Part shown: positions 4,254 through 61,973 of the stretch, piece after piece | How positions within the stretch are numbered: the stretch's first letter is position 1 | How the letters are laid out: every line of letters starts with the position of its first letter | Assembly: GCA_002499585.1 (NCBI GenBank) | Contig: DAMH01000027.1 | Coordinates: forward strand, 63,789-127,788 | DNA from: Euryarchaeota archaeon UBA552 | Lineage (GTDB): Archaea; Thermoplasmatota; Poseidoniia; Poseidoniales; Thalassarchaeaceae | DNA length: 64,000 nucleotides | Direction of reading: 5' to 3' | Position numbers and translations under genes: made by a program | The notes under the pieces: model-generated | Seen by the model: the letters and a program-made list of their open reading frames with translations, nothing else | What the model was told of the DNA's origin: nothing | Databases searched by the model: none

Positions 4254-4256
4254 CAA

Positions 4257-5429: not shown

Positions 5430-5436
5430 ATCCCCC

Positions 5437-6513: not shown

Positions 6514-6534
6514 GCCTATCCCACATAGGGGGGT

Positions 6535-6542
6535 GAAATAAA
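6535..6542 (-). promoter_or_regulatory. Putative TATA box of the transferrin-like gene
   Basis: TTTATTTC on the minus strand, about 22-29 nt upstream of ATG 6513; spacing fits a leaderless or short-leader archaeal promoter. Confidence 0.55.
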
Positions 6543-6561
6543 TTTTAGGCTTCCCTAAAAT
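6542..6561. promoter_or_regulatory. DtxR/SirR/MntR-type operator (ATTTTAGG-cttc-CCTAAAAT)
   Basis: Perfect 8-bp inverted repeat with a 4-nt spacer containing the TTAGG-N4-CCTAA core; abuts the TATA box and covers the BRE position. Confidence 0.75.
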
Positions 6562-6587
6562 AACAAATGTGGTCTTGACAGATTACA

Positions 6588-8060
6588 CTAAGGATCGGTG
6601 AGAAGACTGGTTTCTGTGAAGAGGCTCGGCCCACTGGCCAAGTAGGCCATAACGCCCCTCCTGGATCTGGAGTCTTCGGGCGTGGAGTTATTTCCTGTGG
6701 CACACGATCCTGTGCAGCCGTCAGCAAAAGAGATGAAGATCCGTCCTTCCCTATCTATGTGTAGGTCGTTGAAATCTAGTAAATTACGATTCGACCCACC
6801 TATATCACGGCAATCACCACTGTTGAGGCAGATACTGCCGATCTGGACAGGGTCACTGGTTACCCTGTATGTGTGAAAAGTCGGTTTCTCATCAAGGGCA
6901 TTGAGACTGATTGTCACGTATAGGTGGTAACTGACATTTGCGTTTGCGAAGTGGGCATTGCCGTCCCATTCCTGGCCATCAATGTCTGGTTGACCTAGTT
7001 CGCCTGAGTCTTCGCTCCCTAGGTATGTGACTGCGATCCTCCCTGGGTCCCCGGCGTCAACCTGTGGGAAAACTGAGGAGATGATCTCCACCGGGCTGAT
7101 TCGGGTACTAGTTTGGTCCCATGTTAAACCCGAGTCTATGCTCCTAGACATGTACACCCCCTCGTCTGAGCCTGTCCATATGTGGTATGCATTGGACTGA
7201 GTGTCCGTTGCAACCTCCGAGTTTTTTCTGGGATAGGGTGTGCCGGCATCTTCACCCATTGTCTCTGCGAACCAAGAAAATCCGTTGTCCTTGGATACTA
7301 TTACTGTTGGAGTCTCGACTCTGGGGGTTACATAGACCGTACCGTCCGGGGCGGAAGTTATTGCCCCATGCAGGCCTCCGTCGGTCGTGGCCAGCCCGAT
7401 TATTTGTCCACCAGCCTCGAACGATGCACCGCCATCGAAGCTGGTGAAGCAGAATATTCCAGCCAATTTGTTGTAACAGTAGTAAACTGCTTGCTCGTAG
7501 ATTTGCTGGGAAAATTGGCCCGCTAAACCATACCCGATATCAGTCCACGGACCTGTTGCCAGCTTGATGTGGTCATTGATTGGCGTGGTTCCAGAGTCGT
7601 GTGGATTACCTAACCAGGTTTCACCGTCATCGTCGCTCCAGCAAATCCATGATGTCTCCAATCCCTGCATTTGGACGTTGAATATTCGGTCTGTAACGGG
7701 GTCGACCCAACCCCAAGGATCATTGGTCTGAAATGCGCACATTGGCCCTTTCACGTCTTCCCAAGATCCGCCGTAATCGCACGACCTCATGACCTTCTCG
7801 AAAGCAATGAAAAACACACAACCTGATGATGTAACCCCTATGCTGGGCTCCGCTCCATCCTGTCCTACGTCACTGAGGTTGAAGTTTAGCTGCAACGGGA
7901 GATTATCCGACGGCAGCCCGTCTGGACCAGTGACGAATATTCCTTCATTGCCTGTCTCTGGATCTGTTTGAATCGGGGTGTCTTCATTTTGAATACATCC
8001 CGAGACGGCCATTGTGGCCATCATCAAAGAGAAGGTCAAGGCGATCAAGGGGTGCTGCAT
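6588..8060 (-). CDS. Secreted BNR/Asp-box repeat beta-propeller lipoprotein (sialidase-like fold)
   Basis: Lipobox VSGC; five Asp boxes (SCDYGGSW, SDDDGETW, SFDGGASF, SKDNGFSW, SIDSGLTW). Confidence 0.85.
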   Translation of the reverse strand: MQHPLIALTFSLMMATMAVSGCIQNEDTPIQTDPETGNEGIFVTGPDGLPSDNLPLQLNFNLSDVGQDGAEPSIGVTSSGCVFFIAFEKVMRSCDYGGSWEDVKGPMCAFQTNDPWGWVDPVTDRIFNVQMQGLETSWICWSDDDGETWLGNPHDSGTTPINDHIKLATGPWTDIGYGLAGQFSQQIYEQAVYYCYNKLAGIFCFTSFDGGASFEAGGQIIGLATTDGGLHGAITSAPDGTVYVTPRVETPTVIVSKDNGFSWFAETMGEDAGTPYPRKNSEVATDTQSNAYHIWTGSDEGVYMSRSIDSGLTWDQTSTRISPVEIISSVFPQVDAGDPGRIAVTYLGSEDSGELGQPDIDGQEWDGNAHFANANVSYHLYVTISLNALDEKPTFHTYRVTSDPVQIGSICLNSGDCRDIGGSNRNLLDFNDLHIDREGRIFISFADGCTGSCATGNNSTPEDSRSRRGVMAYLASGPSLFTETSLLTDP

Positions 8061-35548: not shown

Positions 35549-37020
<1,472 letters not shown>

Positions 37021-49721: not shown

Positions 49722-50600
49722 TCACCTAATCTCCTCGATAGCCTTGGTTGTCCACACAGTGAGCCTTCCCAAATCACCGCCCGGTGCTAAGTGCTCAGCA
49801 GAAAGATCCTTTGCAGACACAACATCTACTCCTGGTACATTCCTAGCAGCCTTTGCAAGTGATCCCATATCTGAAACCACGAGGAGTACGGATTTGGGCG
49901 TCCTTCTCTTCCTGCCCCTCATTTTTCCCTTCCCTGCTCGTATGGATCTTCCGTTCTTGGCCCGGTAAAGATCCGCGCCGATACCAATTCCGTCCATTAT
50001 GGCTACGAATTTTCTCGTGGCGTGTGAGATTGGGATCGACTCGAGGTCATGTGTCTCGCTGGCCCCATCTTTTTCTTCGACATAAGAATCCAGAACCACT
50101 GGGAATCGTAGAGCGCTGTCGAACTTGTGCCCTCTCAGTGCGACAAATTCCGGGTTAGAGCTTGCTGCAATCGCAGAATCTCTTGCGATCCTTTTCTGCT
50201 TAGAGTTCATTTTCATTGCCCAATCTTTCTCTACCATTGGACCATGCGCCCTTCGTCCGCCTCTCGTGTGTGGGTTTTGAGCAGCCGTTCTTTGACCGGT
50301 CTTTCTCATAATCCGTGATACGCCGCGGCCTTTGCCCCACCATTCGACTGAATGTTTCATCCCGGCTTGAGGAGCCCTCTTGCCCCCGTGATTTCTGTGA
50401 CCGTATGGTTGTCTCCGATTAGCTCGTGAGGAATGAACTGCATCTCTGACGATGTCTTCTCTTATTTCGGAGGAAAACGCTGAAGGAAGTTCCATTTTGG
50501 ACCCTTTTCCTACTGATACGGCATAAGATTCGGACTGAAGTCCCGCGTCGACCTCTGTCTGCGAGATTGTGTTTTTCAGAGAATATGTTACCGCTTCCAT
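49722..50600 (-). CDS. rpl4: 50S ribosomal protein uL4
   Basis: WWGKGRGVSRI, GGRRAHGP, RAGKGKMRGR, NVPGVD, HLAPGG..GRLTVWT. Confidence 0.96.
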   Translation of the reverse strand: MEAVTYSLKNTISQTEVDAGLQSESYAVSVGKGSKMELPSAFSSEIREDIVRDAVHSSRANRRQPYGHRNHGGKRAPQAGMKHSVEWWGKGRGVSRIMRKTGQRTAAQNPHTRGGRRAHGPMVEKDWAMKMNSKQKRIARDSAIAASSNPEFVALRGHKFDSALRFPVVLDSYVEEKDGASETHDLESIPISHATRKFVAIMDGIGIGADLYRAKNGRSIRAGKGKMRGRKRRTPKSVLLVVSDMGSLAKAARNVPGVDVVSAKDLSAEHLAPGGDLGRLTVWTTKAIEEIR

Positions 50601-50604
50601 GTTA

Positions 50605-51681
50605 TCACACTCCCTGCTTTGATGCGGTGCTGACGTAAGTCAGATCTATTGGATGGCTGTTCTTTCGAGGCCTGATAGGATCTCTTAGCCTGAGTAACCT
50701 CTTGGCCGGACCGGGTAGACTGCCTTGAACAAGAACGTAGGCATTCTTCACCTCTCCGTAGTTGAGGAATCCTCCAGCAGGAGTTATTTCGTTGGTTAGC
50801 GGGGTTGATATTCGTAGTAGTCTTTTATTCAATTCGGTCCTCTGATGGTAACCCATCTGCCCGGCCTGGGGTACGGTCGACCTGACATAGCCCGTACCGA
50901 AGTCACCAAGGTTTCCGGCTTGCCGTCTTTTCTTACTATTCTTGTGACTTAGGAGTTTAACACCCCATCTCTTAACTGAACCTTGGAAACCCTTGCCTTT
51001 TGTGATTCCGATCACGTCAATTTCCTGCCCATCTTCCCAAACGTCTTCAATTGTAATCTCTGCCCCGAGCCGTTCCTTCGCCCACTCAAGTTTCTCGACA
51101 GGCGTCCCACCGACAAGATTCAATTCCATTATCTCGGAAGTTTTGCTGGGGGATCCAGATACCAAATTAGGTTGAGTGGCCGCAATGATTCTTACCTCGA
51201 TCAAATCTGCGGAGGTTAGGGCGTCGTAGGCTGTTTGGTTGAATCCCGTAGATCGTGATGGTATTCTACCTCCCCTCTTTGCAGGCTTCCTTCCTTCTGA
51301 GGCGTCTCTTTCTCCGCGAGTTGCGTTGGCGAGTCTAGGTACGATTCCTGGGGGCAAATCGTCTGGCTCGCACCAAACCTCTCCAGCAGTCCTGAGCCCA
51401 TAGGGATCCATCGAGTAACCTCTGACTCCCAGAATTCTCATAGGGGGTGTCTCGACAACTGTTACTGCTTTTCGAACCTCCTGACCTGCGCTGGTGGACG
51501 TTGGGTTCGTGTTTTTTACCAGAACGTGAGTCATTCCTGCTTTCCAACCGGCGAAACCCTGGACTCGTATTCCTTGGGCATTGGTGTCTGGCCAAGCAGT
51601 GACAGTACCATAGGGGCGGTTAGCACGCTTGCGCGGGCTAAAGCCCATGCTTCCCCTTCGAGGTCGGTGTTTGTCTGCCAT
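50605..51681 (-). CDS. rpl3: 50S ribosomal protein uL3
   Basis: HRPRRGSMGFSPRKRA, GWKAGMTH, TKGKGFQGSVKRWG, PQAGQMGYHQRTELNKR, GSLPGP.KR. Confidence 0.97.
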   Translation of the reverse strand: MADKHRPRRGSMGFSPRKRANRPYGTVTAWPDTNAQGIRVQGFAGWKAGMTHVLVKNTNPTSTSAGQEVRKAVTVVETPPMRILGVRGYSMDPYGLRTAGEVWCEPDDLPPGIVPRLANATRGERDASEGRKPAKRGGRIPSRSTGFNQTAYDALTSADLIEVRIIAATQPNLVSGSPSKTSEIMELNLVGGTPVEKLEWAKERLGAEITIEDVWEDGQEIDVIGITKGKGFQGSVKRWGVKLLSHKNSKKRRQAGNLGDFGTGYVRSTVPQAGQMGYHQRTELNKRLLRISTPLTNEITPAGGFLNYGEVKNAYVLVQGSLPGPAKRLLRLRDPIRPRKNSHPIDLTYVSTASKQGV

Positions 51682-51710
51682 GTTATGGTCTCCGTGTTTT
51701 TTACCGGTTT

Positions 51711-51862
51711 AGGTCGCTGATGCGACGGTCGCCGGGCGCGTAGCGAAAGGAGAGGACCGTGACATCGGACCTCGTCGCCAGATTGGGCGACGCGGACCTC
51801 GGGGTGCATTTGCAGAGCCCTGTTATGTCTGGTACTCCTCGTTACGAGCGGCCCTGCGACCT
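51711..51862 (-). promoter_or_regulatory. Candidate structured 5' leader of the rpl3 super-operon (putative r-leader)
   Basis: GC-rich non-coding region with nested inverted repeats (51711-17/51856-62, 51725-30/51755-60, 51773-79/51786-92, 51838-41/51845-48). Confidence 0.4.
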
Positions 51863-51962
51863 GCCATTCATTTATGAAAGAATCGGATGCAGTGACTCAT
51901 TCCAAACAGCTCTTCGTTCCATTGTAATGCTTTAGAACCGCGCGCGAAAGGAACTCCCTGCG

Positions 51963-53702
51963 ATGATCCCCCACGTGATCCACCCCTTACTTCGCAAAGA
52001 TGTCATCGAGGCACGTGCGTATCAGCTGGAAGGAGTAGCGGAGACCCTTGAAGCATCGACTCTATTGATTTATCCGACGGCAGCAGGCAAAACAGTCGTC
52101 TCTGCCATGGTTGTGGCTGAAAAGATTCACCAGGAAAGCGGATTTGCAGTGCTATTGGCACCTACAGTGGGGTTGGTTGATCAACACTACAAGACGTTCA
52201 AAAATTGGTTTTCAGAAGACATCAGGGTCAATACTCTGACTGGATCCCAACCCGCTAAACGAAGGAAAGGCGTATGGCAATCTTCGGATCTTGTGGTTGC
52301 AACCCCTCAGGTCTTTCGGAACGACGTTCAAAACGGCCTGTTGGATCCTAGTGACCTCTCCATGCTTGTATTGGATGAGGCCCATCACTCAGTCGGCAAT
52401 CATGCCATGGGGCAGTCAGCTGACCTTTACGTCGATTGTAGTGACTCCCGCATCTTGGCTATGACAGCCAGTCCCGGTTACTCAAAACGGCATGTCCAAG
52501 ACCTTTGCAAAAGGTTGGCCATCAATAGAATTCACATGAGGTCTTCCTCGGACTCCAGCGTGAAGAAATACCTCTCTGAATTAGATATCCTTGAAATCAG
52601 AGTTGACGTCCCCGTTGACTTGAAGAAATTAGCTCATCCTTTCAATGAATGGCAAGAGAGCCTCGTGGACGTGGAAAGAAGGCTTGGAAGATATGTACAT
52701 GAAGGCAGGATAGGCTATGCTGGCCTTTCTGGTGCGATGGACAGAGCAAAAGGAGCTATCAGAAGGGGGGATGGTTCTGCATATGCATCAGTCTCCAGAT
52801 TAGCACTAGCAATGACGCTCAACCACCTCATTAATCATCTACTATCCCAAGGAGTGGGTGCAGCGCGGGAATTCTTATCCAGAAAGGCCATGGGCGAATC
52901 CAGAACAAAGAAATCAGGCCGGGATTTTCTCAAAGATCACAGAGTTTCTACCCTAATGAGCCAGCTGGACGGATTGACCGAGATTCATAGCAAGATAGGT
53001 ACGGTAAGAAGGCTTGTGGTAGAGAGGTTAAGGAGGAATCCAAAATCAAAAATCATCATTTTTGCCACATTCAGAGACACAGTATCGTCTATTCACAAAG
53101 CGATCGAGAACATTGATGATGTGAAGGCGCTAAAATTTGTGGGTCAGGCCAAAAAGAACGGCGTGGGCCTTACCTCCTCCCAGCAAATCGAAACGATAGA
53201 CCTCTTTAGGAAAGGGGATGCGAACGTTCTGGTTGCCACCTCTGTCGGCGAAGAAGGACTAGACATACCATCTGCCGACCTCGTGGTCTTCTATGAGCCC
53301 GTGGGAAGTGAGATAAGGACCATTCAAAGAAGGGGTCGAACTGGCAGGAGGAGGCAGGGAGACGTAATTGTTCTCATAGCTGAAGGAACTCGGGACGAGG
53401 GTGCTGCGAACTCTTCCCAGAGAAGGGAAGAGGCGATGTTAAGATCAATCCATTCGGTGCGCAGAAGCTTGTTAGTTGGTCCAATTGACTATAGCGTTCT
53501 AGATTCGTTCTCGGTTTCAAGTGAACAGGGTTTGATCGATGCGTCTTCATTTATTCAGGAAGAAAGGGAGAGGTACAAACATAAATTTTCCATTTCAGAC
53601 ACCTCAAATGAGGGGGCATCTCCCCGAGTTCCTGAATCAGCTGGAGGGCTTGATGCCAAGACTTTCAGACCCTGGGGCCAGTCTGGGTTGGATGACTTTT
53701 GA
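51963..53702 (+). CDS. hef: Hef/FANCM-like SF2 helicase without an ERCC4 nuclease domain
   Basis: PTAAGKT, DEAHH, TASPG, VATSVGEEGLDIP, QRRGRTGR; ends in QSGLDDF. Confidence 0.9.
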   Translation: MIPHVIHPLLRKDVIEARAYQLEGVAETLEASTLLIYPTAAGKTVVSAMVVAEKIHQESGFAVLLAPTVGLVDQHYKTFKNWFSEDIRVNTLTGSQPAKRRKGVWQSSDLVVATPQVFRNDVQNGLLDPSDLSMLVLDEAHHSVGNHAMGQSADLYVDCSDSRILAMTASPGYSKRHVQDLCKRLAINRIHMRSSSDSSVKKYLSELDILEIRVDVPVDLKKLAHPFNEWQESLVDVERRLGRYVHEGRIGYAGLSGAMDRAKGAIRRGDGSAYASVSRLALAMTLNHLINHLLSQGVGAAREFLSRKAMGESRTKKSGRDFLKDHRVSTLMSQLDGLTEIHSKIGTVRRLVVERLRRNPKSKIIIFATFRDTVSSIHKAIENIDDVKALKFVGQAKKNGVGLTSSQQIETIDLFRKGDANVLVATSVGEEGLDIPSADLVVFYEPVGSEIRTIQRRGRTGRRRQGDVIVLIAEGTRDEGAANSSQRREEAMLRSIHSVRRSLLVGPIDYSVLDSFSVSSEQGLIDASSFIQEERERYKHKFSISDTSNEGASPRVPESAGGLDAKTFRPWGQSGLDDF

Positions 53703-53714
53703 GCCTCAGGTACT

Positions 53715-54575
53715 TCAGTCGCCGATTACTGCTACTCGTGTCTTGAGCATCGCAAGCCTCGTTGGGAAGTTGCCTGTCAAGAAGGCTATGTATTCGCAAA
53801 AGTGGATTACAGGAATGTTGGTGTTTAGACCTGTTGACCTGGACGCCTTTCCTTGATAGATGTCCAGAACCCCGTGGGACAGCGTGCAAGCGCTTATTAT
53901 CATCTGAGCACCCATTGATTTGGCATCGGAGAGTATCGTTGCGGATTGCCTCAGAACGGTATTTTCCTCTGAGAATATCCCCGGTGTTCCTGCTGATGAT
54001 GTCCTGGAGGTATATCTGATCGGCGTACCTCCTGAAGACTCTATTATCGATTCCATGTACCATGGATCAAAAATATCATCGCCGCCTACAAGCCCTTCCT
54101 GCTGGAGGTTCGGGCCATAATAAGGTCCTAGTCTGGATGATATTGGGTTCTTCACCTTCTTCAGGAAATTATCCAGCCCTAGATCTTCGACTATGACATG
54201 CAAGAAATGTCTAATTTTTATTGACCCTTCGAGGGATCTTCCAGTAGTTTTTTGCAGTGTCTTGTTGACTTCCCCCATTAGGCTCGGGTCAGATTTCATC
54301 ATTTCCAAGTCCTCATGCAAGGTGGCTGCAGTCGTGGCACACGGGGTGATGATATCCAGCCCCAGATCCTCTGCCATGGACATGGTCCTTGCATTGAGTG
54401 TTATCTGCAAACGCCTGTTCGCCTGGCCCAATATACCTGCACCGCAGCTGGTTGCACCAGGCATGTCTATCAAGTCTACATCTAGGGATCTGCAGGCTGC
54501 ACGCATCGTCTCATCCACCTCTGGAGCGCTGCTGTGGGCAACATTTCCGGGGTGGTATGCGTACCGAACCGGCAT
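53715..54575 (-). CDS. HdrB/SdhE-like double CCG-domain protein with degenerate cysteine motifs
   Basis: YHPGN (cf. YYPGC), SCGAG (CCGAG), LNART, TPCATT, YYGP (YYGC), SAG (CCG), SACTLSH (TACPxCH), IPVIH. Confidence 0.85.
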   Translation of the reverse strand: MPVRYAYHPGNVAHSSAPEVDETMRAACRSLDVDLIDMPGATSCGAGILGQANRRLQITLNARTMSMAEDLGLDIITPCATTAATLHEDLEMMKSDPSLMGEVNKTLQKTTGRSLEGSIKIRHFLHVIVEDLGLDNFLKKVKNPISSRLGPYYGPNLQQEGLVGGDDIFDPWYMESIIESSGGTPIRYTSRTSSAGTPGIFSEENTVLRQSATILSDAKSMGAQMIISACTLSHGVLDIYQGKASRSTGLNTNIPVIHFCEYIAFLTGNFPTRLAMLKTRVAVIGD

Positions 54576-54587
54576 TCCAATTTCTCC

Positions 54588-56798
54588 TCAGAATCTGCGA
54601 TCAAGGGTGTTAAAGATAGATACTACTTCATAGTGCTTGTCCACTCTCTTGTTGAATTGTTTGGGCATCTTACCAATTCCAGCTGGAGGTACTACCAGTC
54701 CGAGGATGTCGTTGACCATCTTACCACCGGTTCTTGTGAAACCGGTCAGCATTCTTGCTGTGACGCCGGAGGTCAGGTTCGAGAGTAGTCCAAGGGGACC
54801 TAGAACTTGCCTGTAGAGTACCGTATCATTTACTCTTCCGCTGCTTTTGAGAGTCCATGCATACCACCACACATGTTTCCCATGACGACCGTTGTACCCA
54901 TTTGATTCCAATGCACTGGTTCTGGCTTCCGAAAGGGCATTTTGAACGCCTCTGCCGGCAAGGGGTTGTCTGGCCATCGGAGCTAAGTCGGTTTCAGCCA
55001 GTATCGCATCTGGTCCGCTCAGGATTTTGTCGATTTGTTTGATCTTCTTGTCAGAGGTTCTGGAATCGGACTTCTTGATCCAAAGGTCTAGACATACCGA
55101 CGGACCGAGGTAGGAGTTAGCATAGGCTACAGAGTCTGAGCAGGAATGCAATATCTGGGATCCGAATCTGTTTGACATGGCATGTAGCTTCGTGGCTTCG
55201 ACAGCACTCATTGGCCCGATAAGGGTCCCCTGATCAGTCCTCAGGGCCTCCCTTGTCTTAGACACATGCCAGACTGATGCTTCTTGTCTTTTCTTTGTAA
55301 GCGCACTGAAATCCACGCATAAGTCCCTTACAACGTCGTAACCGGGAAGTGGCTCAATTTTCATAACAATCGAACCGGGGCGCCCGTTGGAGAGTTGCTC
55401 TATCCGGGTGATGCCGGGGAGAGTTATGCGTCCATTGACGGATATGGCGGTGTTGGGGTCATGTGGAGCTCCGTCTGTGAAACACAAACTGCCGTCATGT
55501 GTCCTTTGGATGGACCTGAGGGCCTCGAGCAAGGTCATGTGGCCTGGGAGCGAGCATAACCAAGTGTCGAGTCCACTCGTTTTCTCATGAGGGTCGTACC
55601 TGAACACTCCCAGTTGAATTTCGACTTCTTCGCCGTGCAAGTCTGGGATGCTGAAGCCGTCTTCACCATCGGCTACCACTGCACCGCCATCAGCCATGTC
55701 GCGTATGGAATCAATGAGCTCTTCGTGCAAGTTTCCTGAGTCATCGACTGCCGAGAGCATGGTTAGGGCTTCAGAGGCCCATTCCGATGCTACGGCCTCA
55801 TAGTCCACATCGCAGTCTACGCGGGCTGCCACGCGCCTTGCACCTAACTCTTCCAACTTGTTGTCCCAATCTTTTCCTGATTGGCAAAACAACTCGTATG
55901 AGGTGTCTCCGAGAGCGAGTACCGAGAAGGAAACGCCGTCCATTTTTGGGGCGCTTCCCGAGGAGGCGGCCAACCAAAGGGCCTCTGCATTGTCTGGCAT
56001 CTCTCCTTCGCCCCATGTCGAGCAGATGATGGCGACTCTTTTCATCGACGCCATGGCATTGATGTCAAAGCCGTCCATGTCATGAACGATTCCTTTCAAT
56101 CCATAATTTTCAGCTCTCTTTGCGAAATTGGATGCTAGTTGTTCGGAATTCCCCGATTGAGAACCAAAGAATATGTTCAGTGTTCTGTCTCCGGTTCCGA
56201 GTAAATCCTCAAGGCCGCCTCCAACGGCAATTTTATCCTTATTTTGATCCGTTTCGATCGCTTTTTCATCAGGGGTCTCTGGGACAGATCGGACTTCTCC
56301 TATTTTGCTTGGGTCGTAGGCTCCCGACGAGTCTACTACGGATAGGTGGGAAAGTGCTTCTGAAGTAAATAGTGCTGCAGGCTTATCATAATCTACGTCA
56401 CAATCAACCCTAGTGACCAGCCTATTTGCTCCTTGTTTTTCGAACCATTGGTCCCAGTCTTTTCCAGATTGACAGAAAAGATCGTATGACGAATCCCCTA
56501 GGGAACATACTGCAAAATGGCAGGTGGTCAAGGAGGGGAGGGAATCGCCTTGGGCTTGCTGCCAAAGATCCTCTGCATTGTCAGGCATCTCCCCCTCACC
56601 CCATGTGCTGCAGTAAATTAGGACCCTGTTGTAACTAGATAGGTCGGAAATTTTTATTTCGTCCATCCCTTTTACGATCGGTTCAAGGCCGTGTGATTTG
56701 GCTTCTTTGGCGGCTTTGGTGCAGAGGTCCTCAGCGTTGCCGGACTGGGATCCGTAAAGTATCAGCAAGGGAAGTTCGGAGGACATTGTAATCACCAT
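54588..56798 (-). CDS. Tandem flavodoxin-flavodoxin fused to a cysteine-less SdhB/FrdB-like domain
   Basis: Two FMN-binding domains (GSQSGN, STWGEGEMPDNA, LGD.SY.LFCQSG). These are followed by the SdhB landmarks VFRYDP, TLLEAL..I...DGSL.F, VNG, IEPLPGYDVVRDLCVD, YLGP and DSR. Confidence 0.88.
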   Translation of the reverse strand: MVITMSSELPLLILYGSQSGNAEDLCTKAAKEAKSHGLEPIVKGMDEIKISDLSSYNRVLIYCSTWGEGEMPDNAEDLWQQAQGDSLPSLTTCHFAVCSLGDSSYDLFCQSGKDWDQWFEKQGANRLVTRVDCDVDYDKPAALFTSEALSHLSVVDSSGAYDPSKIGEVRSVPETPDEKAIETDQNKDKIAVGGGLEDLLGTGDRTLNIFFGSQSGNSEQLASNFAKRAENYGLKGIVHDMDGFDINAMASMKRVAIICSTWGEGEMPDNAEALWLAASSGSAPKMDGVSFSVLALGDTSYELFCQSGKDWDNKLEELGARRVAARVDCDVDYEAVASEWASEALTMLSAVDDSGNLHEELIDSIRDMADGGAVVADGEDGFSIPDLHGEEVEIQLGVFRYDPHEKTSGLDTWLCSLPGHMTLLEALRSIQRTHDGSLCFTDGAPHDPNTAISVNGRITLPGITRIEQLSNGRPGSIVMKIEPLPGYDVVRDLCVDFSALTKKRQEASVWHVSKTREALRTDQGTLIGPMSAVEATKLHAMSNRFGSQILHSCSDSVAYANSYLGPSVCLDLWIKKSDSRTSDKKIKQIDKILSGPDAILAETDLAPMARQPLAGRGVQNALSEARTSALESNGYNGRHGKHVWWYAWTLKSSGRVNDTVLYRQVLGPLGLLSNLTSGVTARMLTGFTRTGGKMVNDILGLVVPPAGIGKMPKQFNKRVDKHYEVVSIFNTLDRRF

Positions 56799-57008
56799 AC
56801 CTTGCGGTTGTAATATGAGGGAACATATGGCGATTATTGAACATGTGGATCCTAGGGTAATCGAAAAGCGTCTGTTGCGGTGATTCTACGGTCTCGAGGG
56901 AACATTCCAAATCATGCTCTACATTGGATTTTGAGAAGTTTCACGGTTTCAGGAATTTGGGCTTCAGGATTTTTCCACTGTGTTTGGTAGTCGATCATGG
57001 AGGGGGAG

Positions 57009-58619
57009 TTACATGTCCATTCCATCAAACTCGCCGCCCATTTCTGGGGCTCCTCCCTTGCTGGAAATGACGTCATCAATCCTGAGTATCATAACAGCGG
57101 TCTCGCTGGCAGACTGTATTGCCTGTTCTACTACCCTGGTGGGTTCGTAAACGTCCCCAGCCCCCATGTCTACCACTCCTCCATCATAGACATTGACACC
57201 ATACCTCGATTTCCCCTCGGAGTGGGCCTTTCTCAGGGCTATGATTGTATTTACCGGGTCCAGTCCAGCATTCTCTGCCAGTGTCCGTGGGATCACCTCC
57301 ATAGCTCCAGCAAAGGCCTCTATGGCCATTTGTTCACGTCCACCGACGCCCTCTGCGAAAGATCGCAGGTCCCTGCTTAGCGCAGCGAGTACGGATCCGC
57401 CTCCGGTCAGGACTGTTCCATCCTCATGGGCTACGGAAACCACCCCTATGGCATCGTCGAACGCCCGCCGTATTTCATCAACTACATGTTCTGTGCCTCC
57501 TCGGAGGAGTACGGATACGGCTTTTGCCTGATTGCAGCCAGTTATGAAAACCATGTCTGAATCCCCTATCTTCCTTTCATCTACCTTGGCCGCTTCTCCT
57601 AGGTCGTCCTTGGATAGATCTTCTAGGGTGGTGACTATTCTTCCACCTGTGGCTTTTGAGAGGCCCTCCATGTCACTCTTTTTGGCTCTCCTTATTGCGA
57701 ATATGCCGGCTTTTGCCATGTGGTGTTGTGCGAGGTCGTCTATCCCTTTCTGGCAGACCACTACATTTGCGCCTGACGATGAGATGGTTTCTACCAAACC
57801 TTTGATGTATGACTCCTCTTCATCTAGAAACTGGGAGAGCATACTAGGATCCGTGATCTGTATTTTAGCATCGACCTCGGTCTTTTTGACCTCGATGGCA
57901 GAGTTGACGAGTGCTATTTTAGCTCCTTCGACGGACCTAGGCATGCCTGAGTGAACTCTTTCCTTGTCGAGAATTATGCCGTTGACGAGAGAGCTGTCTT
58001 TGATCGATCCGCCTTGCTTTTTCTCCACCTTAACATCATCCAGGTCGACGAGTATGCCATCACTATCTTCCTGTGCGACGGCCAATACCGCCTTGACGCA
58101 AATATCTGATAGGAACTCCTTGACAGCACCTGCACTTTTGCCAGTAAGGGCTGTTTTGGCGACCTCAGTCAGAGTTTTTTTGTCTACTTCGATGGAGTGG
58201 TCCTCTATTAGCTCTATTGCCTTGTCAGATGCAAGGCGGAACCCCTCGCATATTACCGTAGGGTGAACGTTTTGCTCGATAAGATCCTCTGACCGCTTCA
58301 ACAGCTCTCCAGCCAGAACAACAGCGGTGGTCGTTCCATCGAAGCAATGTTGTTCTTGTGTCTTTGCGATTTCAATTATCATTTTAGCAGCGGGGTGCTC
58401 AATGTCCATCTCTTTGAGTATTGTAGCACCGTCATTTGTGATTACGACGTCACCCATGCTGTCAACAAGCATTTTGTCCATACCCTTGGGGCCAAGCGTG
58501 GAGCGGACTGCTTCAGCAACAGCTTTGGCAGCGGCGATGTTGTTACTTTGCGCTGTTCTACCGCTTGTTCTCGTCGTACCCTCTTTGAGAATGAATATTG
58601 GTTGCTGTCCATTTGTCAT
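57009..58619 (-). CDS. ths: Thermosome (group II chaperonin) subunit
   Basis: [40 protein letters not shown]. Confidence 0.98.
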
Positions 58620-58685
58620 GGCAATGCCTCGTATGTGCTACCGACACGACTTGACGTCATAAGGGCTGCCACTCGTTGGTGAGGT

Positions 58686-61600
58686 TCATTCCTGGTCCTC
58701 GGGTTCAGATGGAAGGTTTGTTGGCTGGCTGAATATTTCTTGTGCCCCGCCTAGCGCTGAGTTAGCTATGTGATCATGGATGGGCAAATCTGGAGGGAGG
58801 CCAAGTGGTTCAAAATTTGTGTACTCCTCCATAGGGCCGCCAGCTCCGCGCACGATCCTTACAGCCGTGAATAGAATGGCCAGTGCCCCTATCACACCAA
58901 CAGCGATGAGAAGATAGTTCCCCAGAGTAAGGCCAATCTCCTCTACGTTGGGACCTTCATCCACGGGATTGGATTTTAGCATTGTTAGAGGGGTGCTGCT
59001 ACTGGTTTTGTCAATGTCAGTGTCAACAAGCAGCGTCAGCGCAAATAGCATGGAGTTATCCTCAAGATTTCGAAGGTTGTCTTCGTCGATTACGAGGGTG
59101 ACTTTGACTAGTCGAGTCTCATCTGAGCCCAGAACGAAGTCTCTGTCACTGGTATCAACTCGGGCGTCGAAGACGTTGAAGAATAGGTCAGACTGCCTGT
59201 CGATGTCGGCACGTACCAACTGTTCGTACGAGGGGTGAAGGTTCCGTATCGAGAAGAATAAGTCGTAAGATCCCTCTTCGGATATGGTGGTCATAGCTTG
59301 TTCTGGGAATATTTGGAGCCATCCTACGGAGCCAACATCAAAAACAGCTGAACCGGAATCCTCCACAACTACATTCCTCTGTGCCGCAAGGTCCGATTTG
59401 GCCACCATCGAGACTACTCTCTCGCCAAAGGTGTCCGAATCAAAGCTGTATGAGACAGTGACGTTGTATGAAGAGCCAGCAGGTATCCAAGGAGTCAGGT
59501 CGCCATCTTCCCCGCTCTCCACAGTGACATCGGTAAGATGATCAAATGATAGTCTGTAACGGTCCATCTGATTTCCTCGGTTCCAGACCTCCCACCTCAG
59601 AGTTCTCGGTTCATCGCCCCCCCTGTAGACCTCGTCCGACATATCCAGTTCGGCTACTTCCACAAGCTGTGTTGAGGGCACTGTCAGGGTCATGGTTGTC
59701 TGCACTTCATACAAGGGGTTTGACTGACTTCGTGCAGTAACCCTCAGCAAGTATGTTTCATTATCCACGCCATAGGGCATGGGTAACAAAAGGAGTACGG
59801 ACGTATCCCCTCCGAAGGGGTCGATCCCAAGTGTCGAGGGCGTGCTGAGTCTGGCCCTTAAGGATGGGTCGGCGGTCACAAAGAGATCGTATGCCTCCTC
59901 TGAGTTGCCATTGTTGATTATTACTAGTTCCACTATGCGGGACGCGTTGTCCGCCGGAATCGTCCGCTCTCTGAACTCGGGGATTATCTCTAACTCGAAC
60001 TTATTGAGCACCTCAATCCGCAGAACTCTGTCAGCAGGGAAATTATTGGGTGCCTTTCCGTTGACATCAAGCCTGAGGTCATATATTCCGGGGATGGCAT
60101 CCTCGGGAACTGAGACATGAGGTATTAGATCGATTTCGTCTCCGATAGAGGTGAATATCGTTTCGATTGTGGCTCCTGTTTCATTGGACCATCTGATAAG
60201 AGTTGATGGGTCCCAGTTGGGTTCGTCAAGGTAGACGCCTCCGAGGTTCCAACTCCCAATTTGATTGCCGGTGTTGCTGAATGTGAGAGGAACACTGCCT
60301 GAATCCCCTGGATACAATTGAAGATGCGGATTGCCGCCAGAGGGATTGAAATCTAGGTCTATGAAACCGGAATATGATGGTTGAACATCGACGTATTGCA
60401 CTATTGGCTCCCCGAGTTCAAGCTTTGAAGCGTTAGTCAAGCCGTCATTGATGTGTATGTGCCATTCTAGTGACTCGACAGTTACAGATGCGGGAATGGA
60501 CAGATTAAACCACGCGGGCATTGTTGTTTGAGCTTTTATGATTTTAGTGACAATGAAAGAGTCTTTGTCGTTTGTACCTGGAGTATCGATTCTGATTAAA
60601 TCAGGCCAAGAGGAGTTGGTGACTTCGCTGTAGATCCTTAGAGTTATGTCGACGTATCCGTTGTTTGTTATGCCGCAAGCTAATTCGATAGGGTCCCCAA
60701 CTGGGATGACGGGATGAGCTTCTATCCCCTCTTTGTAATCTCCAGCGCAGTCCACGGAAATGGTGTATTCGGGGATCTTTTGGATAGCGAAGAGGAGGAA
60801 ACCGTCAATCTCTATCCCCGGGGTGGCACTCGTGCCATCGCTTCTAAAGAGGTATGAAAGTCGGTATTCTTGCTGAGCATGCACATCTGACATGTCCCAA
60901 ATTACCTGTTCCCACGAGTCATTGGAAGGCAATGTCATGTTTGTGAAATTTAATTCTTTGACATCAAGGCCTGAGACTGCTTGGAGTGTGACTGAGTCTC
61001 CCTGCCCCATCGCGCCTCTCGCGTTGGTGACTAACTGCATGGAATAAAATTGGTAACCGCGCACAACAGCGCCGCACATGAAAGCATCATGCACCGTACT
61101 GATTTGTGTATCCAAACTGCCGGCACCAAGTCCGTGTCCTGTATCACTGCATGCGGTATCGGCGGCCCTGAAACCTAGATGCAGCCTGTCAATCCTGCCA
61201 CTGGCGTAATCTAGCTGGCTATTTCCCGATATCCTCCAATGTGAGTCCCCGACGGCTGATGTGGTATTTGAGTAGTCTAGCCTCCAATGGCCTGCGTCAT
61301 CCGGGTCAGTGGAAAGTGTTCCGTCAGAATCGTAACCAGCAGTTAGCCATATCAAACCCAAATTGGGGGGATTGGGGCAGTTGATAACACCGTCTCCATC
61401 GACATCTGAGCACCACCCTTCATCCAGAGGGTCGTCAATCACGGCCACGGGAATTTCTCGCGATAGTACGTCATTGGATGGATCTTCATCAATACCGACT
61501 CCAGAATCTATTTCTACAGATACCAACAAGCCCCCACTCAAGGCCCCTTCCGGGGAAAGGACACTGTGAGAATAATTCGGGACATAGGTGAACGACTCTT

Positions 61601-61973
61601 GTTTGGCCTCTCCTCCTGTGAGGGTAACATTGGCTGAGAATTCTGCTAATGATATGCCAACTGGGTGGGTTACATTGACGTAGTAATCCGCATATTGCCC
61701 CTGCGCTCCTATTCCGAGTTGAGTGATTCTCACAGTTATGGTGAGGGTTTCGTCTCTTACGATGTATTCAGCGAGTTCCCCATCAGGTTGTTGCCAGATT
61801 GGTAAAGAGCTAGATGCAGAGGAAAATTCTATTGTCGTGACTTCGAAATCAGTCACAGCCCTAGCTGAAACGTGTGATTTTACATCTCCGCCTGAATCAC
61901 TCAATGCAACTCCTTGAACGGGCAATATCAACGCTGCGAGGAGCAGGGGCAACACGGCCGAGCGACCAGACAT
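58686..61973 (-). CDS. Large cell-surface protein (signal peptide, Ig-like/NEW3-type repeats, C-terminal TM anchor)
   Basis: 1095 aa, acidic and beta-rich; repeated N.GN..D/E.Y.L motifs; C-terminal hydrophobic helix with a short tail. Confidence 0.8.
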   Translation of the reverse strand: MSGRSAVLPLLLAALILPVQGVALSDSGGDVKSHVSARAVTDFEVTTIEFSSASSSLPIWQQPDGELAEYIVRDETLTITVRITQLGIGAQGQYADYYVNVTHPVGISLAEFSANVTLTGGEAKQESFTYVPNYSHSVLSPEGALSGGLLVSVEIDSGVGIDEDPSNDVLSREIPVAVIDDPLDEGWCSDVDGDGVINCPNPPNLGLIWLTAGYDSDGTLSTDPDDAGHWRLDYSNTTSAVGDSHWRISGNSQLDYASGRIDRLHLGFRAADTACSDTGHGLGAGSLDTQISTVHDAFMCGAVVRGYQFYSMQLVTNARGAMGQGDSVTLQAVSGLDVKELNFTNMTLPSNDSWEQVIWDMSDVHAQQEYRLSYLFRSDGTSATPGIEIDGFLLFAIQKIPEYTISVDCAGDYKEGIEAHPVIPVGDPIELACGITNNGYVDITLRIYSEVTNSSWPDLIRIDTPGTNDKDSFIVTKIIKAQTTMPAWFNLSIPASVTVESLEWHIHINDGLTNASKLELGEPIVQYVDVQPSYSGFIDLDFNPSGGNPHLQLYPGDSGSVPLTFSNTGNQIGSWNLGGVYLDEPNWDPSTLIRWSNETGATIETIFTSIGDEIDLIPHVSVPEDAIPGIYDLRLDVNGKAPNNFPADRVLRIEVLNKFELEIIPEFRERTIPADNASRIVELVIINNGNSEEAYDLFVTADPSLRARLSTPSTLGIDPFGGDTSVLLLLPMPYGVDNETYLLRVTARSQSNPLYEVQTTMTLTVPSTQLVEVAELDMSDEVYRGGDEPRTLRWEVWNRGNQMDRYRLSFDHLTDVTVESGEDGDLTPWIPAGSSYNVTVSYSFDSDTFGERVVSMVAKSDLAAQRNVVVEDSGSAVFDVGSVGWLQIFPEQAMTTISEEGSYDLFFSIRNLHPSYEQLVRADIDRQSDLFFNVFDARVDTSDRDFVLGSDETRLVKVTLVIDEDNLRNLEDNSMLFALTLLVDTDIDKTSSSTPLTMLKSNPVDEGPNVEEIGLTLGNYLLIAVGVIGALAILFTAVRIVRGAGGPMEEYTNFEPLGLPPDLPIHDHIANSALGGAQEIFSQPTNLPSEPEDQE

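What the first reader, a model, noticed from the sequence alone, without database searches (positions are those of the whole stretch)
53715..56798. Candidate iron-free electron-transfer module: flavodoxins replacing the Fe-S wire of an SdhB-SdhE-type complex
Seen: two co-oriented genes 12 nt apart, homologous to SdhB (with an HdrC-like C-terminal extension) and to SdhE/HdrB. Both reading frames are intact and keep their structural landmarks, yet both have lost their Fe-S cysteines, and two intact FMN-binding flavodoxin domains are fused to the SdhB-like chain. Known: SdhB followed by a CCG-domain anchor (SdhE) defines type-E succinate:quinone oxidoreductases; SdhA carries FAD and no iron; flavodoxin replaces ferredoxin in iron-limited marine microbes. 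Inference: a paralogous subunit pair that keeps the docking surfaces for SdhA (or another flavoprotein) and the membrane, but relays electrons through FMN, sparing several Fe-S clusters per complex. An alternative is a non-catalytic scaffold or regulator of the canonical complex. I know of no description of such a system. No sdhA gene is in the window.
Basis: partly seen in the sequence, partly recalled or inferred. Interest (0 to 1): 0.9.

Follow-up and report, generated by a model that had tools for sequence, protein, structure and literature searches.

The report
Iron-free SdhB/SdhE relic with flavodoxins
A two-gene unit found in every Marine Group II archaeon examined descends from the iron-sulfur subunits of a succinate dehydrogenase but has lost those clusters, carries tethered flavodoxin or ferredoxin domains, and probably works with a separately encoded NADPH reductase rather than with succinate dehydrogenase; its substrate is unknown.

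Summary
Window 54588-56798 (-) encodes Fld-Fld-SdhB-like, and 53715-54575 (-), 12 nt downstream, encodes an HdrB/SdhE-like protein. The SdhB-like part has 0 of 12 cluster cysteines. The HdrB-like protein has 3 of 10.

The pair is single-copy in 121 of 121 Poseidoniales genomes and under strong purifying selection. Its closest relatives lie in intact type-E sdhA-sdhB-sdhE operons of other Thermoplasmatota.

- No sdhA lies near the pair in 20 genera.
- A TfrA-like flavoprotein 13 kb away occurs in only 4 of 121 genomes.
- The resident sdhCAB has its own fully liganded SdhB.

A new lead concerns the electron partner. The flavodoxin domains are of the CysJ type. A CysJ-type FAD/NADPH reductase is present in 121 of 121 genomes, usually without its own FMN domain. 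In typical genomes the only flavodoxin domain is the one in this module.

Across 105 genomes the reductase carries its own FMN domain only where the module lacks ferredoxin, and always where the module has a single flavodoxin. Flavodoxin domains were exchanged between the two proteins at least twice. No CysI exists.

Best reading: a split CysJ-like, here fully iron-free, NADPH-linked chain ending at or on the relic scaffold. The terminal chemistry is unresolved.

The parts
54588..56798 (-). Gene 1: Fld-Fld-SdhB-like fusion (736 aa from the first ATG; probable true start at 56786, giving 732 aa)
   Evidence: ORF; Pfam and NCBIfam; 100%-identical 732-aa database entry
56388..56762 (-). Outer flavodoxin domain (aa 13-137), CysJ/diflavin-reductase type. 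This position holds a ferredoxin in most MGII.
   Evidence: PF00258; Foldseek best match 1ykg, TM 0.91; architecture survey
56199..56351 (-). Acidic, low-complexity linker between the two flavodoxin domains (about aa 150-200)
   Evidence: pLDDT below 50 at aa 169-194; no domain hit
55749..56183 (-). Inner flavodoxin domain (aa 206-350). In typical MGII genomes it is the only Flavodoxin_1 domain of the whole genome.
   Evidence: PF00258; genome-wide count
55629..55748 (-). Linker between the inner flavodoxin and the SdhB-like core (aa 351-390)
   Evidence: pLDDT below 50 at aa 371-391
55299..55613 (-). SdhB-like N-domain (2Fe-2S ferredoxin fold) with all 4 cluster cysteines replaced
   Evidence: PF13085, E 9e-10; alignments; fold match
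54591..55298 (-). SdhB-like C-domain (8 cluster cysteines replaced) plus the long-form SdhB C-terminal extension, with an MGII-specific insert (RM..GFTRTGG)
   Evidence: Alignment with outgroup long-form SdhB; conservation
54576..54587 (-). 12-nt spacer with a GGAG motif. Gene 2 is in frame with gene 1. The two genes are naturally fused in genome G019 (987 aa).
   Evidence: Sequence; fusion
53715..54575 (-). Gene 2: HdrB/SdhE-like protein (286 aa) with two degenerate CCG domains. C79, C230, H123 and H234 are invariant across MGII.
56799..57008 (-). Upstream intergenic region between the thermosome gene and gene 1 (presumed promoter; not tested)
   Evidence: Sequence; gene order conserved in 20 genera

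Best explanation
The pair is a cluster-free heterodimeric relic of the SdhB and SdhE subunits of a type-E succinate dehydrogenase. It no longer belongs to a succinate dehydrogenase.

Proposed role: it serves as the platform and probable acceptor end of a split CysJ-like electron-transfer chain.

Proposed chain:
1. An unlinked, universally conserved CysJ-type FAD/NADPH reductase (in this genome G000:C7:53376-55238) exchanges electrons with the outermost tethered carrier. That carrier is a ferredoxin in most MGII and a flavodoxin here.
2. The outer carrier passes electrons to the inner flavodoxin (FMN).
3. The inner flavodoxin swings on its linker to the cleft between the two degenerate CCG domains of the HdrB-like subunit, or to a client docked on the scaffold.

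That cleft held two non-cubane [4Fe-4S] clusters in the ancestor. Early-branching MGII lineages still keep the distal one. In this genome the cleft keeps only C44, C79, C230 and H234, and the chain would be NADPH -> FAD -> FMN -> FMN with no iron.

Shown:
- Descent from type-E SdhB/SdhE.
- Loss of the cluster ligands.
- Conservation of the pair.
- The carrier swaps.
- The comparative-genomic link to the reductase.

Inferred:
- Physical interaction with the reductase.
- Direction of electron flow.
- The terminal substrate (a quinone or a disulfide/persulfide are the two natural candidates).
For: Descent:
- The closest non-MGII homologues of gene 2 (26-34% identity) lie in sdhA-sdhB(12 Cys)-sdhE(10 Cys) operons.
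- The folds are retained.
- Only 72 hits exist among 1.84 billion representative proteins, with no intermediates.

Constraint:
- The pair occurs in 121 of 121 genomes.
- pN is far below pS.
- A natural gene1-gene2 fusion in G019 argues for a heterodimer.

Stepwise loss of clusters:
- All SdhB clusters and the C-terminal CCG cluster are lost in every MGII sequence.
- The N-terminal CCG cysteines are intact in 7 genera and were lost separately in the MGIIa and MGIIb crown groups.
- In EtfD the C-terminal CCG cluster is the one next to the HdrC-like cubane clusters, and the N-terminal one is distal (PMC13083937).
- So the whole wire went, and only the distal, substrate-side cluster was kept ancestrally.

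Link to the reductase:
- The module's flavodoxin domains best match the E. coli CysJ FMN domain (1ykg).
- The reductase best matches the CysJ FAD/NADPH fragment (1ddg, E 2e-79) and has PF00667 + PF00175.
- The reductase is in 121 of 121 genomes but is FMN-less in about 103 of them.
- In 11 typical genomes, two of them complete, the module holds the only Flavodoxin_1 domain.
- The module's ferredoxin type occurs nowhere else in the genomes searched.
- No CysI was found in 10 genomes.

Complementarity across 105 genomes:
- Fd-Fld-core with a bare reductase: 74.
- Fld-Fld-core: 11 with an FMN-bearing reductase, 11 with a bare one.
- Fld-core: 7 with an FMN-bearing reductase, 0 with a bare one.
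- An FMN-bearing reductase is never found with a ferredoxin-bearing module.

Domain exchange: reductase-fused FMN domains and the module's outer flavodoxins are nested or sister in two independent clades.
Against: - No direct evidence of interaction exists. The two loci are never adjacent.
- The sister order MGIII has the bare reductase but neither the module nor any flavodoxin. The reductase therefore has, or had, another partner.
- FMN-less CysJ-type reductases are common elsewhere and may simply reduce free ferredoxins.
- The association could reflect a common cause, namely lineages that replace ferredoxin with flavodoxin everywhere. The Fisher tests are not corrected for phylogeny, and there are only 2-3 independent events.
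- G045 (Fd-core) and G001 (Fd-Fd-core) have no flavodoxin at all.
- A chain of two or three FMN carriers is unusual.
- No cofactor is left in the scaffold of this genome to define an active site.
- The fused AF2 model gave no confident SdhB*/HdrB* assembly (pTM 0.36).
Confidence: 0.5

Rival explanations
1. First reader's model. The pair docks on SdhA (or another SdhA-family flavoprotein) and on the membrane, and the tethered FMN domains replace the Fe-S wire of a succinate:quinone or quinol:fumarate oxidoreductase.
For: - The pair is homologous to SdhB/SdhE, and the whole SdhB fold is retained.
- This genome has a TfrA-like orphan flavoprotein 13 kb away.
- One canonical SdhA is present in nearly all MGII.
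Against: - The TfrA-like gene is in 4 of 121 genomes, against 121 of 121 for the module.
- No sdhA lies near the pair in 20 genera.
- The canonical SdhA has its own complete SdhB in an sdhCAB operon.
- The cluster sites in the core hold hydrophobic or small residues.
- In solved complex II structures the FAD is buried under the SdhB N-domain. An external tethered FMN could not reach it if the SdhB-like protein docks in the canonical way (inference).
Confidence: 0.07
2. A ferredoxin/flavodoxin hub independent of the NADPH reductase. The tethered carriers collect low-potential electrons from 2-oxoacid:ferredoxin oxidoreductases and pass them, through the SdhE-like subunit at the membrane surface, to the quinone pool. 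This would make it a ferredoxin:quinone oxidoreductase.
For: - SdhE is thought to be the monotopic anchor and quinone site of type-E enzymes (PMC2754724).
- The ancestral module kept one CCG cluster.
- The outer carrier is a low-potential single-cluster ferredoxin in 76 of 105 genomes.
- How aerobic archaea re-oxidise ferredoxin is an open question (own knowledge).
Against: - Neither protein shows a visibly hydrophobic or transmembrane stretch (read by eye from the translations).
- This model does not explain the complementarity and the domain exchange with the CysJ-type reductase.
- I did not inventory OFOR genes here.
Confidence: 0.18
3. A non-catalytic scaffold. The SdhB*/HdrB* dimer only holds carrier domains near the reductase, or oligomerises them, so that they can serve several client enzymes. 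Alternatively it regulates the canonical complex II.
For: - This genome's scaffold has no cofactor ligands left.
- The N-terminal carriers vary freely while the core stays constant.
- E. coli CysJ uses an N-terminal oligomerisation region (own knowledge).
Against: - Conservation is very high in the former active-site cleft: C79, C230, H123 and H234 are invariant, and many polar motifs are conserved.
- The SdhB C-extension is equally conserved.
- That pattern is more than a passive scaffold usually shows.
- An intact distal cluster is retained in 7 genera.
Confidence: 0.2
4. A decaying relic without function.
For: Loss of all cofactor ligands.
Against: - The pair is single-copy with intact frames in 121 of 121 genomes.
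- pN is 0.11-0.16 against pS 0.82-0.87.
- Amino-acid identity is 40-60% across the order, with 54 and 65 columns conserved in at least 95% of sequences.
Confidence: 0.01

Closest known systems
Type-E (non-classical) succinate:quinone oxidoreductase SdhB + SdhE (Sulfolobus/Acidianus SdhABEF; Campylobacter/Wolinella MFR SdhABE)
   Same: - Gene order is sdhB then sdhE.
- The SdhB is the long form with the C-terminal extension.
- SdhE has a two-CCG-domain fold.
- The closest outgroup homologues sit in sdhABE operons.
   Different: - There is no sdhA partner gene.
- 0 of 12 SdhB cysteines and 3 of 10 SdhE cysteines remain.
- Ferredoxin or flavodoxin domains are fused to the N-terminus.
- The family is isolated in sequence space.
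HdrB/HdrC, TfrB, HdrD and EtfD (CCG-domain proteins with non-cubane [4Fe-4S] clusters)
   Same: - The fold matches HdrB (TM 0.82-0.86, E 3.7e-32).
- The HdrC-like part comes before the HdrB-like part, and the two are fused in one genome as in TfrB/HdrD.
[quoted passage not shown] That is a precedent for a flavin carrier docking on this fold.
   Different: - The bridging catalytic cysteines (HdrB C81 and C234) are T82 and S233 here.
- The proximal cluster is lost in all MGII, and the distal one is lost in this lineage.
- There are no cubane clusters and no membrane haem subunit.
E. coli sulfite reductase flavoprotein CysJ and other diflavin reductases (CPR, NOS reductase, MSR, NDOR1)
   Same: - The module's flavodoxin domains match the CysJ FMN domain best.
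- The unlinked MGII reductase matches the CysJ FAD/NADPH fragment best.
- Flexible tethers fit the swinging-FMN-domain mechanism.
   Different: - The two halves are on different proteins in about 85% of MGII genomes.
- The FMN half is fused to an SdhB relic.
- An extra carrier (ferredoxin or a second flavodoxin) is present.
- There is no CysI hemoprotein.
- Published surveys label both as 'cysJ' and infer sulfite assimilation (PMC6336850).
Ferredoxin-to-flavodoxin substitution in iron-limited marine microbes (petF/isiB type)
   Same: An iron-containing and an iron-free carrier alternate at one functional position among close relatives, including within this genus.
   Different: - The swap is a domain replacement inside a fusion protein, fixed per genome. 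It is not two regulated genes.
- A link to iron availability was not tested.

Membership tests
Type-E succinate:quinone oxidoreductase (SdhABE/F) | SdhB binds [2Fe-2S] and two [4Fe-4S] clusters through 12 cysteines | tested here: not met
   0 of 12 in this protein and in 41 of 41 MGII sequences. Outgroup SdhB proteins have 12 of 12.
Type-E succinate:quinone oxidoreductase (SdhABE/F) | SdhE has two complete CCG motifs (10 cysteines) | tested here: not met
   3 of 10 here (C44, C79, C230). Some MGII genera have 6 of 10. Outgroups have 10 of 10.
Type-E succinate:quinone oxidoreductase (SdhABE/F) | An SdhA flavoprotein is encoded with the pair and partners it | tested here: not met
   No sdhA lies next to the pair in 20 genera. 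A second SdhA-like gene occurs in 4 of 121 genomes.
Type-E succinate:quinone oxidoreductase (SdhABE/F) | Sequence and fold homology of both subunits over their full length | tested here: met
   NCBIfam hits to the SdhB and SdhE models of methylmenaquinol:fumarate reductase (MFR); colinear alignment; Foldseek TM 0.77-0.86.
Type-E succinate:quinone oxidoreductase (SdhABE/F) | Succinate:quinone or quinol:fumarate activity | not testable with these tools
   Needs biochemistry.
Heterodisulfide reductase HdrBC / thiol:fumarate reductase TfrB | Two non-cubane [4Fe-4S] clusters, including the bridging cysteines (HdrB C81 and C234) | tested here: not met
   T82 and S233 occupy the bridging positions, and 7 of 10 ligands are lost.
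Heterodisulfide reductase HdrBC / thiol:fumarate reductase TfrB | An HdrC-like or SdhB-like subunit with cubane clusters feeds HdrB | tested here: not met
   No CxxCxxCxxxCP motif is left in gene 1.
Diflavin reductase (CysJ/CPR type) | A Flavodoxin_1-type FMN domain with an intact phosphate loop and aromatic flanks | tested here: met
   PF00258 twice, E 2.6e-62. Match to 1ykg with TM 0.91 and 40% identity.
Diflavin reductase (CysJ/CPR type) | FAD_binding_1 and NAD_binding_1 lie on the same polypeptide as the FMN domain | tested here: not met
   Absent from gene 1. They lie on a separate protein that is present in 121 of 121 genomes and FMN-less in most.
Diflavin reductase (CysJ/CPR type) | A CysI siroheme hemoprotein acceptor (for assimilatory sulfite reductase) | tested here: not met
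   PF01077 is absent from 10 MGII genomes, while the control genomes were positive.
Diflavin reductase (CysJ/CPR type) | Electron transfer from the FAD/NADPH half to the FMN domain | not testable with these tools
   Only comparative evidence is available.
Iron-sparing ferredoxin/flavodoxin substitution | Ferredoxin and flavodoxin alternate at the same functional position among close relatives | tested here: met
   Within this genus, G000, G059 and G097 are Fld-Fld, and G009 and G083 are Fd-Fld.
Iron-sparing ferredoxin/flavodoxin substitution | The choice of carrier follows iron availability | not tested
No environmental metadata were available.

The most novel reading that the evidence does not exclude
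Together with the unlinked CysJ-type reductase, the module is a previously unrecognised core oxidoreductase of Marine Group II archaea. In it the catalytic cleft of an HdrB/SdhE fold has been rebuilt without iron-sulfur clusters, around C79, C230, H234 and C/D44 as a thiol pair or a mononuclear metal site. NADPH feeds that cleft through swinging FMN (or Fd) domains. The result would be an NADPH-dependent reductase of a quinone or an organic di-/persulfide that is iron-free in lineages like this one. It would also explain why 'cysJ' is core in MGII although sulfite reductase is absent.
Probability: 0.25. Interest if true: 0.9.

Novelty: new variant of a known kind. Interest (0 to 1): 0.8.

Why it matters
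- **Abundance.** Marine Group II archaea are among the most abundant archaea of the surface ocean, and none is cultured.
- **Mislabelled core genes.** This pair is one of their universal genes, yet it has no assigned function. Together with the unlinked reductase it is labelled 'cysJ', 'sdhC' or 'hdrB'. A published core trait, assimilatory sulfite reduction, appears to rest on that label, although no CysI gene was found in 10 genomes.
- **Iron removal.** The family records a stepwise removal of iron from an electron-transfer module: first the wire, then the proximal cluster, then the distal cluster, then the ferredoxin. The protein scaffold stays under strong selection throughout. This is rare, directly relevant to iron limitation in the ocean, and informative about what Fe-S scaffolds can do without their clusters.
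- **A testable system.** The link to an FMN-less CysJ-type reductase gives a concrete three-protein system to express and assay.

Tried and rejected
1. **Orphan SdhA/TfrA-like flavoprotein as partner.** The gene lies 13 kb away (G000:C18:133764-135521). Rejected: it is in 4 of 121 genomes and absent from the other members of this genus.
2. **Informative neighbours.** Gene order is conserved in 20 genera: large secreted protein, thermosome, gene 1, gene 2, then Hef-like helicase and L3 on the opposite strand. None is a redox gene. The reductase locus is also conserved (Cdc6, MBL hydrolase | reductase, biotin-carboxylase-like, PfkB kinase) and has no acceptor gene.
3. **CysI as acceptor.** Absent.
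4. **ETF:quinone role.** Not needed, because the genome has two intact HdrD/EtfD-like CCG proteins.
5. **MGIII loci of the reductase.** No conserved or informative neighbours.
6. **Search for intermediates** (cysteine-bearing SdhB with fused carriers) among 1.84 billion representatives. None found.
7. **AF2 of the read-through gene1-gene2 fusion.** The SdhB core was poorly predicted and pTM was 0.36, so nothing can be said about the complex. The tool returns no coordinates, so C79-C230 and FMN distances could not be measured.
9. **Literature.** No description of the module was found.
10. **dS.** It is saturated within the genus, so only pN/pS could be given. Gene 2 was not scored separately.

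Full report
**1. What is in the sequence**

On the minus strand, 54588-56798 encodes a 736-aa protein. The 100%-identical database entry is 732 aa, which points to the second ATG at 56786 as the start. 53715-54575 encodes a 286-aa protein. The two genes are separated by TGA plus 12 nt (GGAGAAATTGGA) and are in the same frame.

Gene 1 has two Flavodoxin_1 domains (aa 13-137 and 206-350), then a Fer2_3/SdhB N-domain (aa 396-500), then an SdhB-like C-terminal half with an extension. Gene 2 matches HdrB (PDB 8rvv_B, E 3.7e-32) and the SdhE anchor of methylmenaquinol:fumarate reductase.

The window comes from a 1.36-Mb, 79%-complete genome of the order Poseidoniales (Marine Group II, MGII), family Thalassarchaeaceae-like.

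**2. Cysteine loss**

I aligned the SdhB-like core with long-form SdhB proteins taken from sdhABE operons of other Thermoplasmatota, and with the genome's own canonical SdhB. All 12 cluster cysteines are replaced, here and in 41 of 41 MGII sequences. The replacements are mostly hydrophobic or small residues.

The HdrB-like protein keeps 3 of its 10 CCG cysteines: C44, C79 and C230. The residues at the bridging-cysteine positions of HdrB (C81 and C234) are T82 and S233.

Both folds survive. An AF2 model of the core matches SdhB/FrdB chains (TM 0.77-0.83 over about 250 columns). The gene 2 part matches HdrB (TM 0.82-0.86). The C-terminal extension of the core was modelled with low confidence, and the fused model had pTM 0.36. 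Nothing can therefore be said from models about the assembly.

**3. Distribution and selection**

Gene 2 is single-copy in 121 of 121 Poseidoniales genomes from 21 genera. It is absent from 8 of 8 genomes of the sister order in the class (MGIII). Within the genus, the core has pN 0.11-0.16 against a saturated pS of 0.82-0.87.

Among 1.84 billion representative proteins the core finds only 72 hits. Fifteen have E <= 1e-30, and all of those I read are cysteine-less MGII-type proteins. Then comes a gap to canonical long-form SdhB at E 1e-6 to 1e-4. No intermediates turned up.

One genome (G019) has the two genes fused into a single 987-aa protein, in the HdrC-like then HdrB-like order of TfrB and HdrD. 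This argues that the two products form one complex.

**4. Origin**

The closest non-MGII homologues of gene 2 (26-34% identity, E down to 2e-47) lie directly after sdhA and a long-form sdhB with 12 cysteines. They carry all 10 CCG cysteines themselves. The pair therefore descends from the sdhB-sdhE part of a type-E operon, as defined in PMC2754724.

The genome's working succinate dehydrogenase is a different enzyme. It is an sdhC-sdhA-sdhB operon on contig 9. Its SdhB passes the PRK12386 model and keeps its cluster cysteines, and its 273-aa membrane subunit has no family match.

**5. Order of the losses**

MGII sequences fall into three states at the 10 CCG positions:

| State | Pattern | Where |
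|---|---|---|
| A | CCCCC/xSVCS (first CCG domain intact) | Seven genera, in both MGII families plus a third family |
| B | NSCCT/PSVCS | MGIIb crown, including this genome |
| C | NSDCS or NGDCA | MGIIa crown |

The C-terminal CCG domain is degenerate in all of them. In the EtfD structure the C-terminal CCG cluster is the one adjacent to the HdrC-like cubane clusters, and the N-terminal one is distal (PMC13083937).

By homology, MGII lost the entire wire: three SdhB clusters plus the proximal CCG cluster. Ancestrally it kept only the distal, substrate-side cluster, which was then lost twice. C79, C230, H123 and H234 are invariant.

In EtfD a residue between the two cysteines of the first domain's CxxC ligates the second domain's cluster. 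C79 and C230/H234 are therefore probably close in space. This is an inference, because the tools return no coordinates.

**6. The N-terminal carriers**

| Module architecture | Reductase without FMN domain | Reductase with FMN domain |
|---|---|---|
| Fd-Fld-core | 74 | 0 |
| Fld-Fld-core (as here) | 11 | 11 |
| Fld-core | 0 | 7 |
| Fd-core | 1 | 0 |
| Fd-Fd-core | 1 | 0 |

The table covers 105 genomes. The reductase columns are explained in section 8.

The ferredoxin is a single-cluster Fer4_13 type and occurs nowhere else in the genomes searched. The swap occurs within this genus: G000, G059 and G097 are Fld-Fld, and G009 and G083 are Fd-Fld. All ferredoxin-less modules belong to lineages whose HdrB-like protein has already lost its last cluster. 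In this genome the module is therefore entirely free of Fe-S sites.

**7. The SdhA hypothesis**

- No sdhA lies near the pair in 20 genera.
- This genome has a TfrA-like flavoprotein 13 kb away, outside the window (556 bits to the TfrA model). The same gene is present in only 4 of 121 genomes and is missing from the other four genomes of this genus.
- The canonical SdhA has its own SdhB.
- The former cluster positions in the core now hold hydrophobic or small residues.
- In solved complex II structures the FAD lies under the SdhB N-domain. A flavodoxin tethered on the outside could not take over a 40-A internal path.

**8. A different partner**

Looking for other flavodoxin-type genes in the genome, I found a CysJ-like protein (G000:C7:53376-55238, 620 aa) whose FMN domain is 51% identical to the module's.

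- **The reductase is universal but usually lacks FMN.** Its FAD/NADPH half (PF00667 + PF00175; best PDB match the E. coli CysJ fragment 1ddg, E 2e-79) is in 121 of 121 Poseidoniales genomes. In about 103 of them the open frame is only about 415-500 aa, and the protein starts exactly at the FAD domain (MSDWSAKNPY...), with no FMN domain.
- **The module holds the only flavodoxin.** In 11 typical genomes, including two complete ones, the only Flavodoxin_1 domain of the whole genome is the one inside this module.
- **The two proteins match the two halves of CysJ.** The module's flavodoxin domains match the E. coli CysJ FMN domain best of all solved structures.
- **No CysI.** It is absent from 10 genomes. 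Published surveys list 'cysJ' in 99-100% of MGII and infer sulfite assimilation from it (PMC6336850).

**9. Complementarity and domain exchange**

The reductase carries its own FMN domain in 18 genomes. All 18 have a ferredoxin-less module (18 of 29, against 0 of 76; Fisher 4e-13). All 7 single-flavodoxin modules, from three lineages, go with an FMN-bearing reductase, compared with 11 of 22 Fld-Fld modules (p = 0.026). These tests are not corrected for phylogeny.

A tree of 77 flavodoxin domains shows exchange in two clades:

- In MGIIb, the reductase-fused FMN domains and the module's outer flavodoxins of two genera form one clade (support 100/98). One genus's outer domains are nested inside the reductase clade (99/96).
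- In MGIIa, the outer flavodoxins and the reductase-fused domains of three genomes are sisters, nested among the MGIIa inner flavodoxins.

The same domain lineage has thus been placed on either protein at least twice. The simplest reading is that the outer carrier is the reductase's direct partner. It is a ferredoxin in most genomes, a flavodoxin on the module in some, and a flavodoxin on the reductase in others.

**10. Caveats**

- The two loci are never adjacent.
- MGIII has the bare reductase (50-57% identity) but no flavodoxin and no module. Earlier notes of this scan show that FMN-less CysJ-type reductases are common elsewhere, in one case next to a ferredoxin. The reductase can therefore work with other partners.
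- The association could come from a shared drive to replace ferredoxin.
- The direction of electron flow and the terminal acceptor are unknown. The HdrB-type cleft suggests a disulfide or persulfide. The SdhE ancestry suggests a quinone.

**11. Comparison with earlier notes and the literature**

At least nine earlier agents of this scan described the same module in other MGII genomes. They reached 'function unknown, carriers swappable'. I confirm those points independently.

- the negative test of the SdhA/TfrA partner;
- the three-state map of cluster loss and its polarity relative to the wire;
- the comparative evidence for coupling to the CysJ-type reductase.

No paper in the searchable library describes the module.

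**12. Verdict**

The module is a new variant of known kinds, with an undescribed architecture and an unknown reaction, in a globally abundant group.

Noticed in passing
G000:C18:133764-135521 (+), about 6 kb beyond the window's end: An orphan SdhA-family flavoprotein (585 aa) whose best model is TfrA, the thiol:fumarate reductase flavoprotein. It has no adjacent Fe-S subunit. It occurs at 75-100% identity in only 4 of 121 Poseidoniales genomes, so it looks like an accessory, probably transferred gene.
   Followed up: yes
G000:C7:53376-55238 (+), another contig: A CysJ-type reductase. Here it has its own FMN domain (620 aa). In most MGII it is FMN-less (about 420-450 aa). It is present in 121 of 121 Poseidoniales and 8 of 8 MGIII genomes, and absent from 229 other Thermoplasmatota. 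A biotin-carboxylase-like gene always follows it.
   Followed up: yes
G000:C18:141506-145801 (+), outside the window: An operon made of an ABC substrate-binding protein, a FecCD-type permease, an ATPase, a stand-alone 156-aa flavodoxin and a HugZ-like protein (PNPOx/CREG + DUF2470). It looks like a haem or iron uptake system with a flavodoxin-fed haem-degrading enzyme.
   Followed up: partly
G000:C14:72454-75249 (+) and G000:C18:209503-211569 (+), outside the window: Two membrane proteins with intact HdrD/EtfD-like modules (2 x CxxCxxCxxxCP plus two complete CCG domains). The 931-aa one has a cytochrome-b-like N-terminal part. The organism therefore still makes CCG-type clusters elsewhere.
   Followed up: partly
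G000:C9:36380-40143 (+), another contig: The canonical succinate dehydrogenase is an sdhC-sdhA-sdhB operon. Its SdhB passes the PRK12386 model, and its 273-aa membrane subunit matches no Pfam or NCBIfam family. From memory it resembles mycobacterial Sdh1. Part of sdhA is masked in the held genome.
   Followed up: partly
window 35549-37020 (-): A complete archaeal 16S rRNA gene lies 16.7 kb downstream of gene 2. In many other MGII assemblies the contig ends about 17 kb from the module. This fits assembly breaks at the rRNA gene and conserved gene order in between.
   Followed up: partly
L019 (G019:C27:4973-14830), ORF 3898-6861: Gene 1 and gene 2 are fused into one 987-aa reading frame in one genome (Fld-Fld-SdhB*-HdrB*). 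In the window the two genes are in frame, separated by TGA plus 12 nt.
   Followed up: partly
window 49722-53702 and 57009-61973: The flanks are ribosomal proteins L4 and L3 (-), a Hef-like helicase (+), a thermosome subunit (-) and a 1095-aa secreted or surface protein (-). This order is conserved in 20 genera of the order.
   Followed up: partly
L169 (G001:C5:13327-16127) and L017 (G045:C9:72726-82583): Rare flavodoxin-free variants of gene 1 exist: Fd-Fd-core (583 aa) and Fd-core (466 aa). G045 has no Flavodoxin_1 domain anywhere in its genome.
   Followed up: partly
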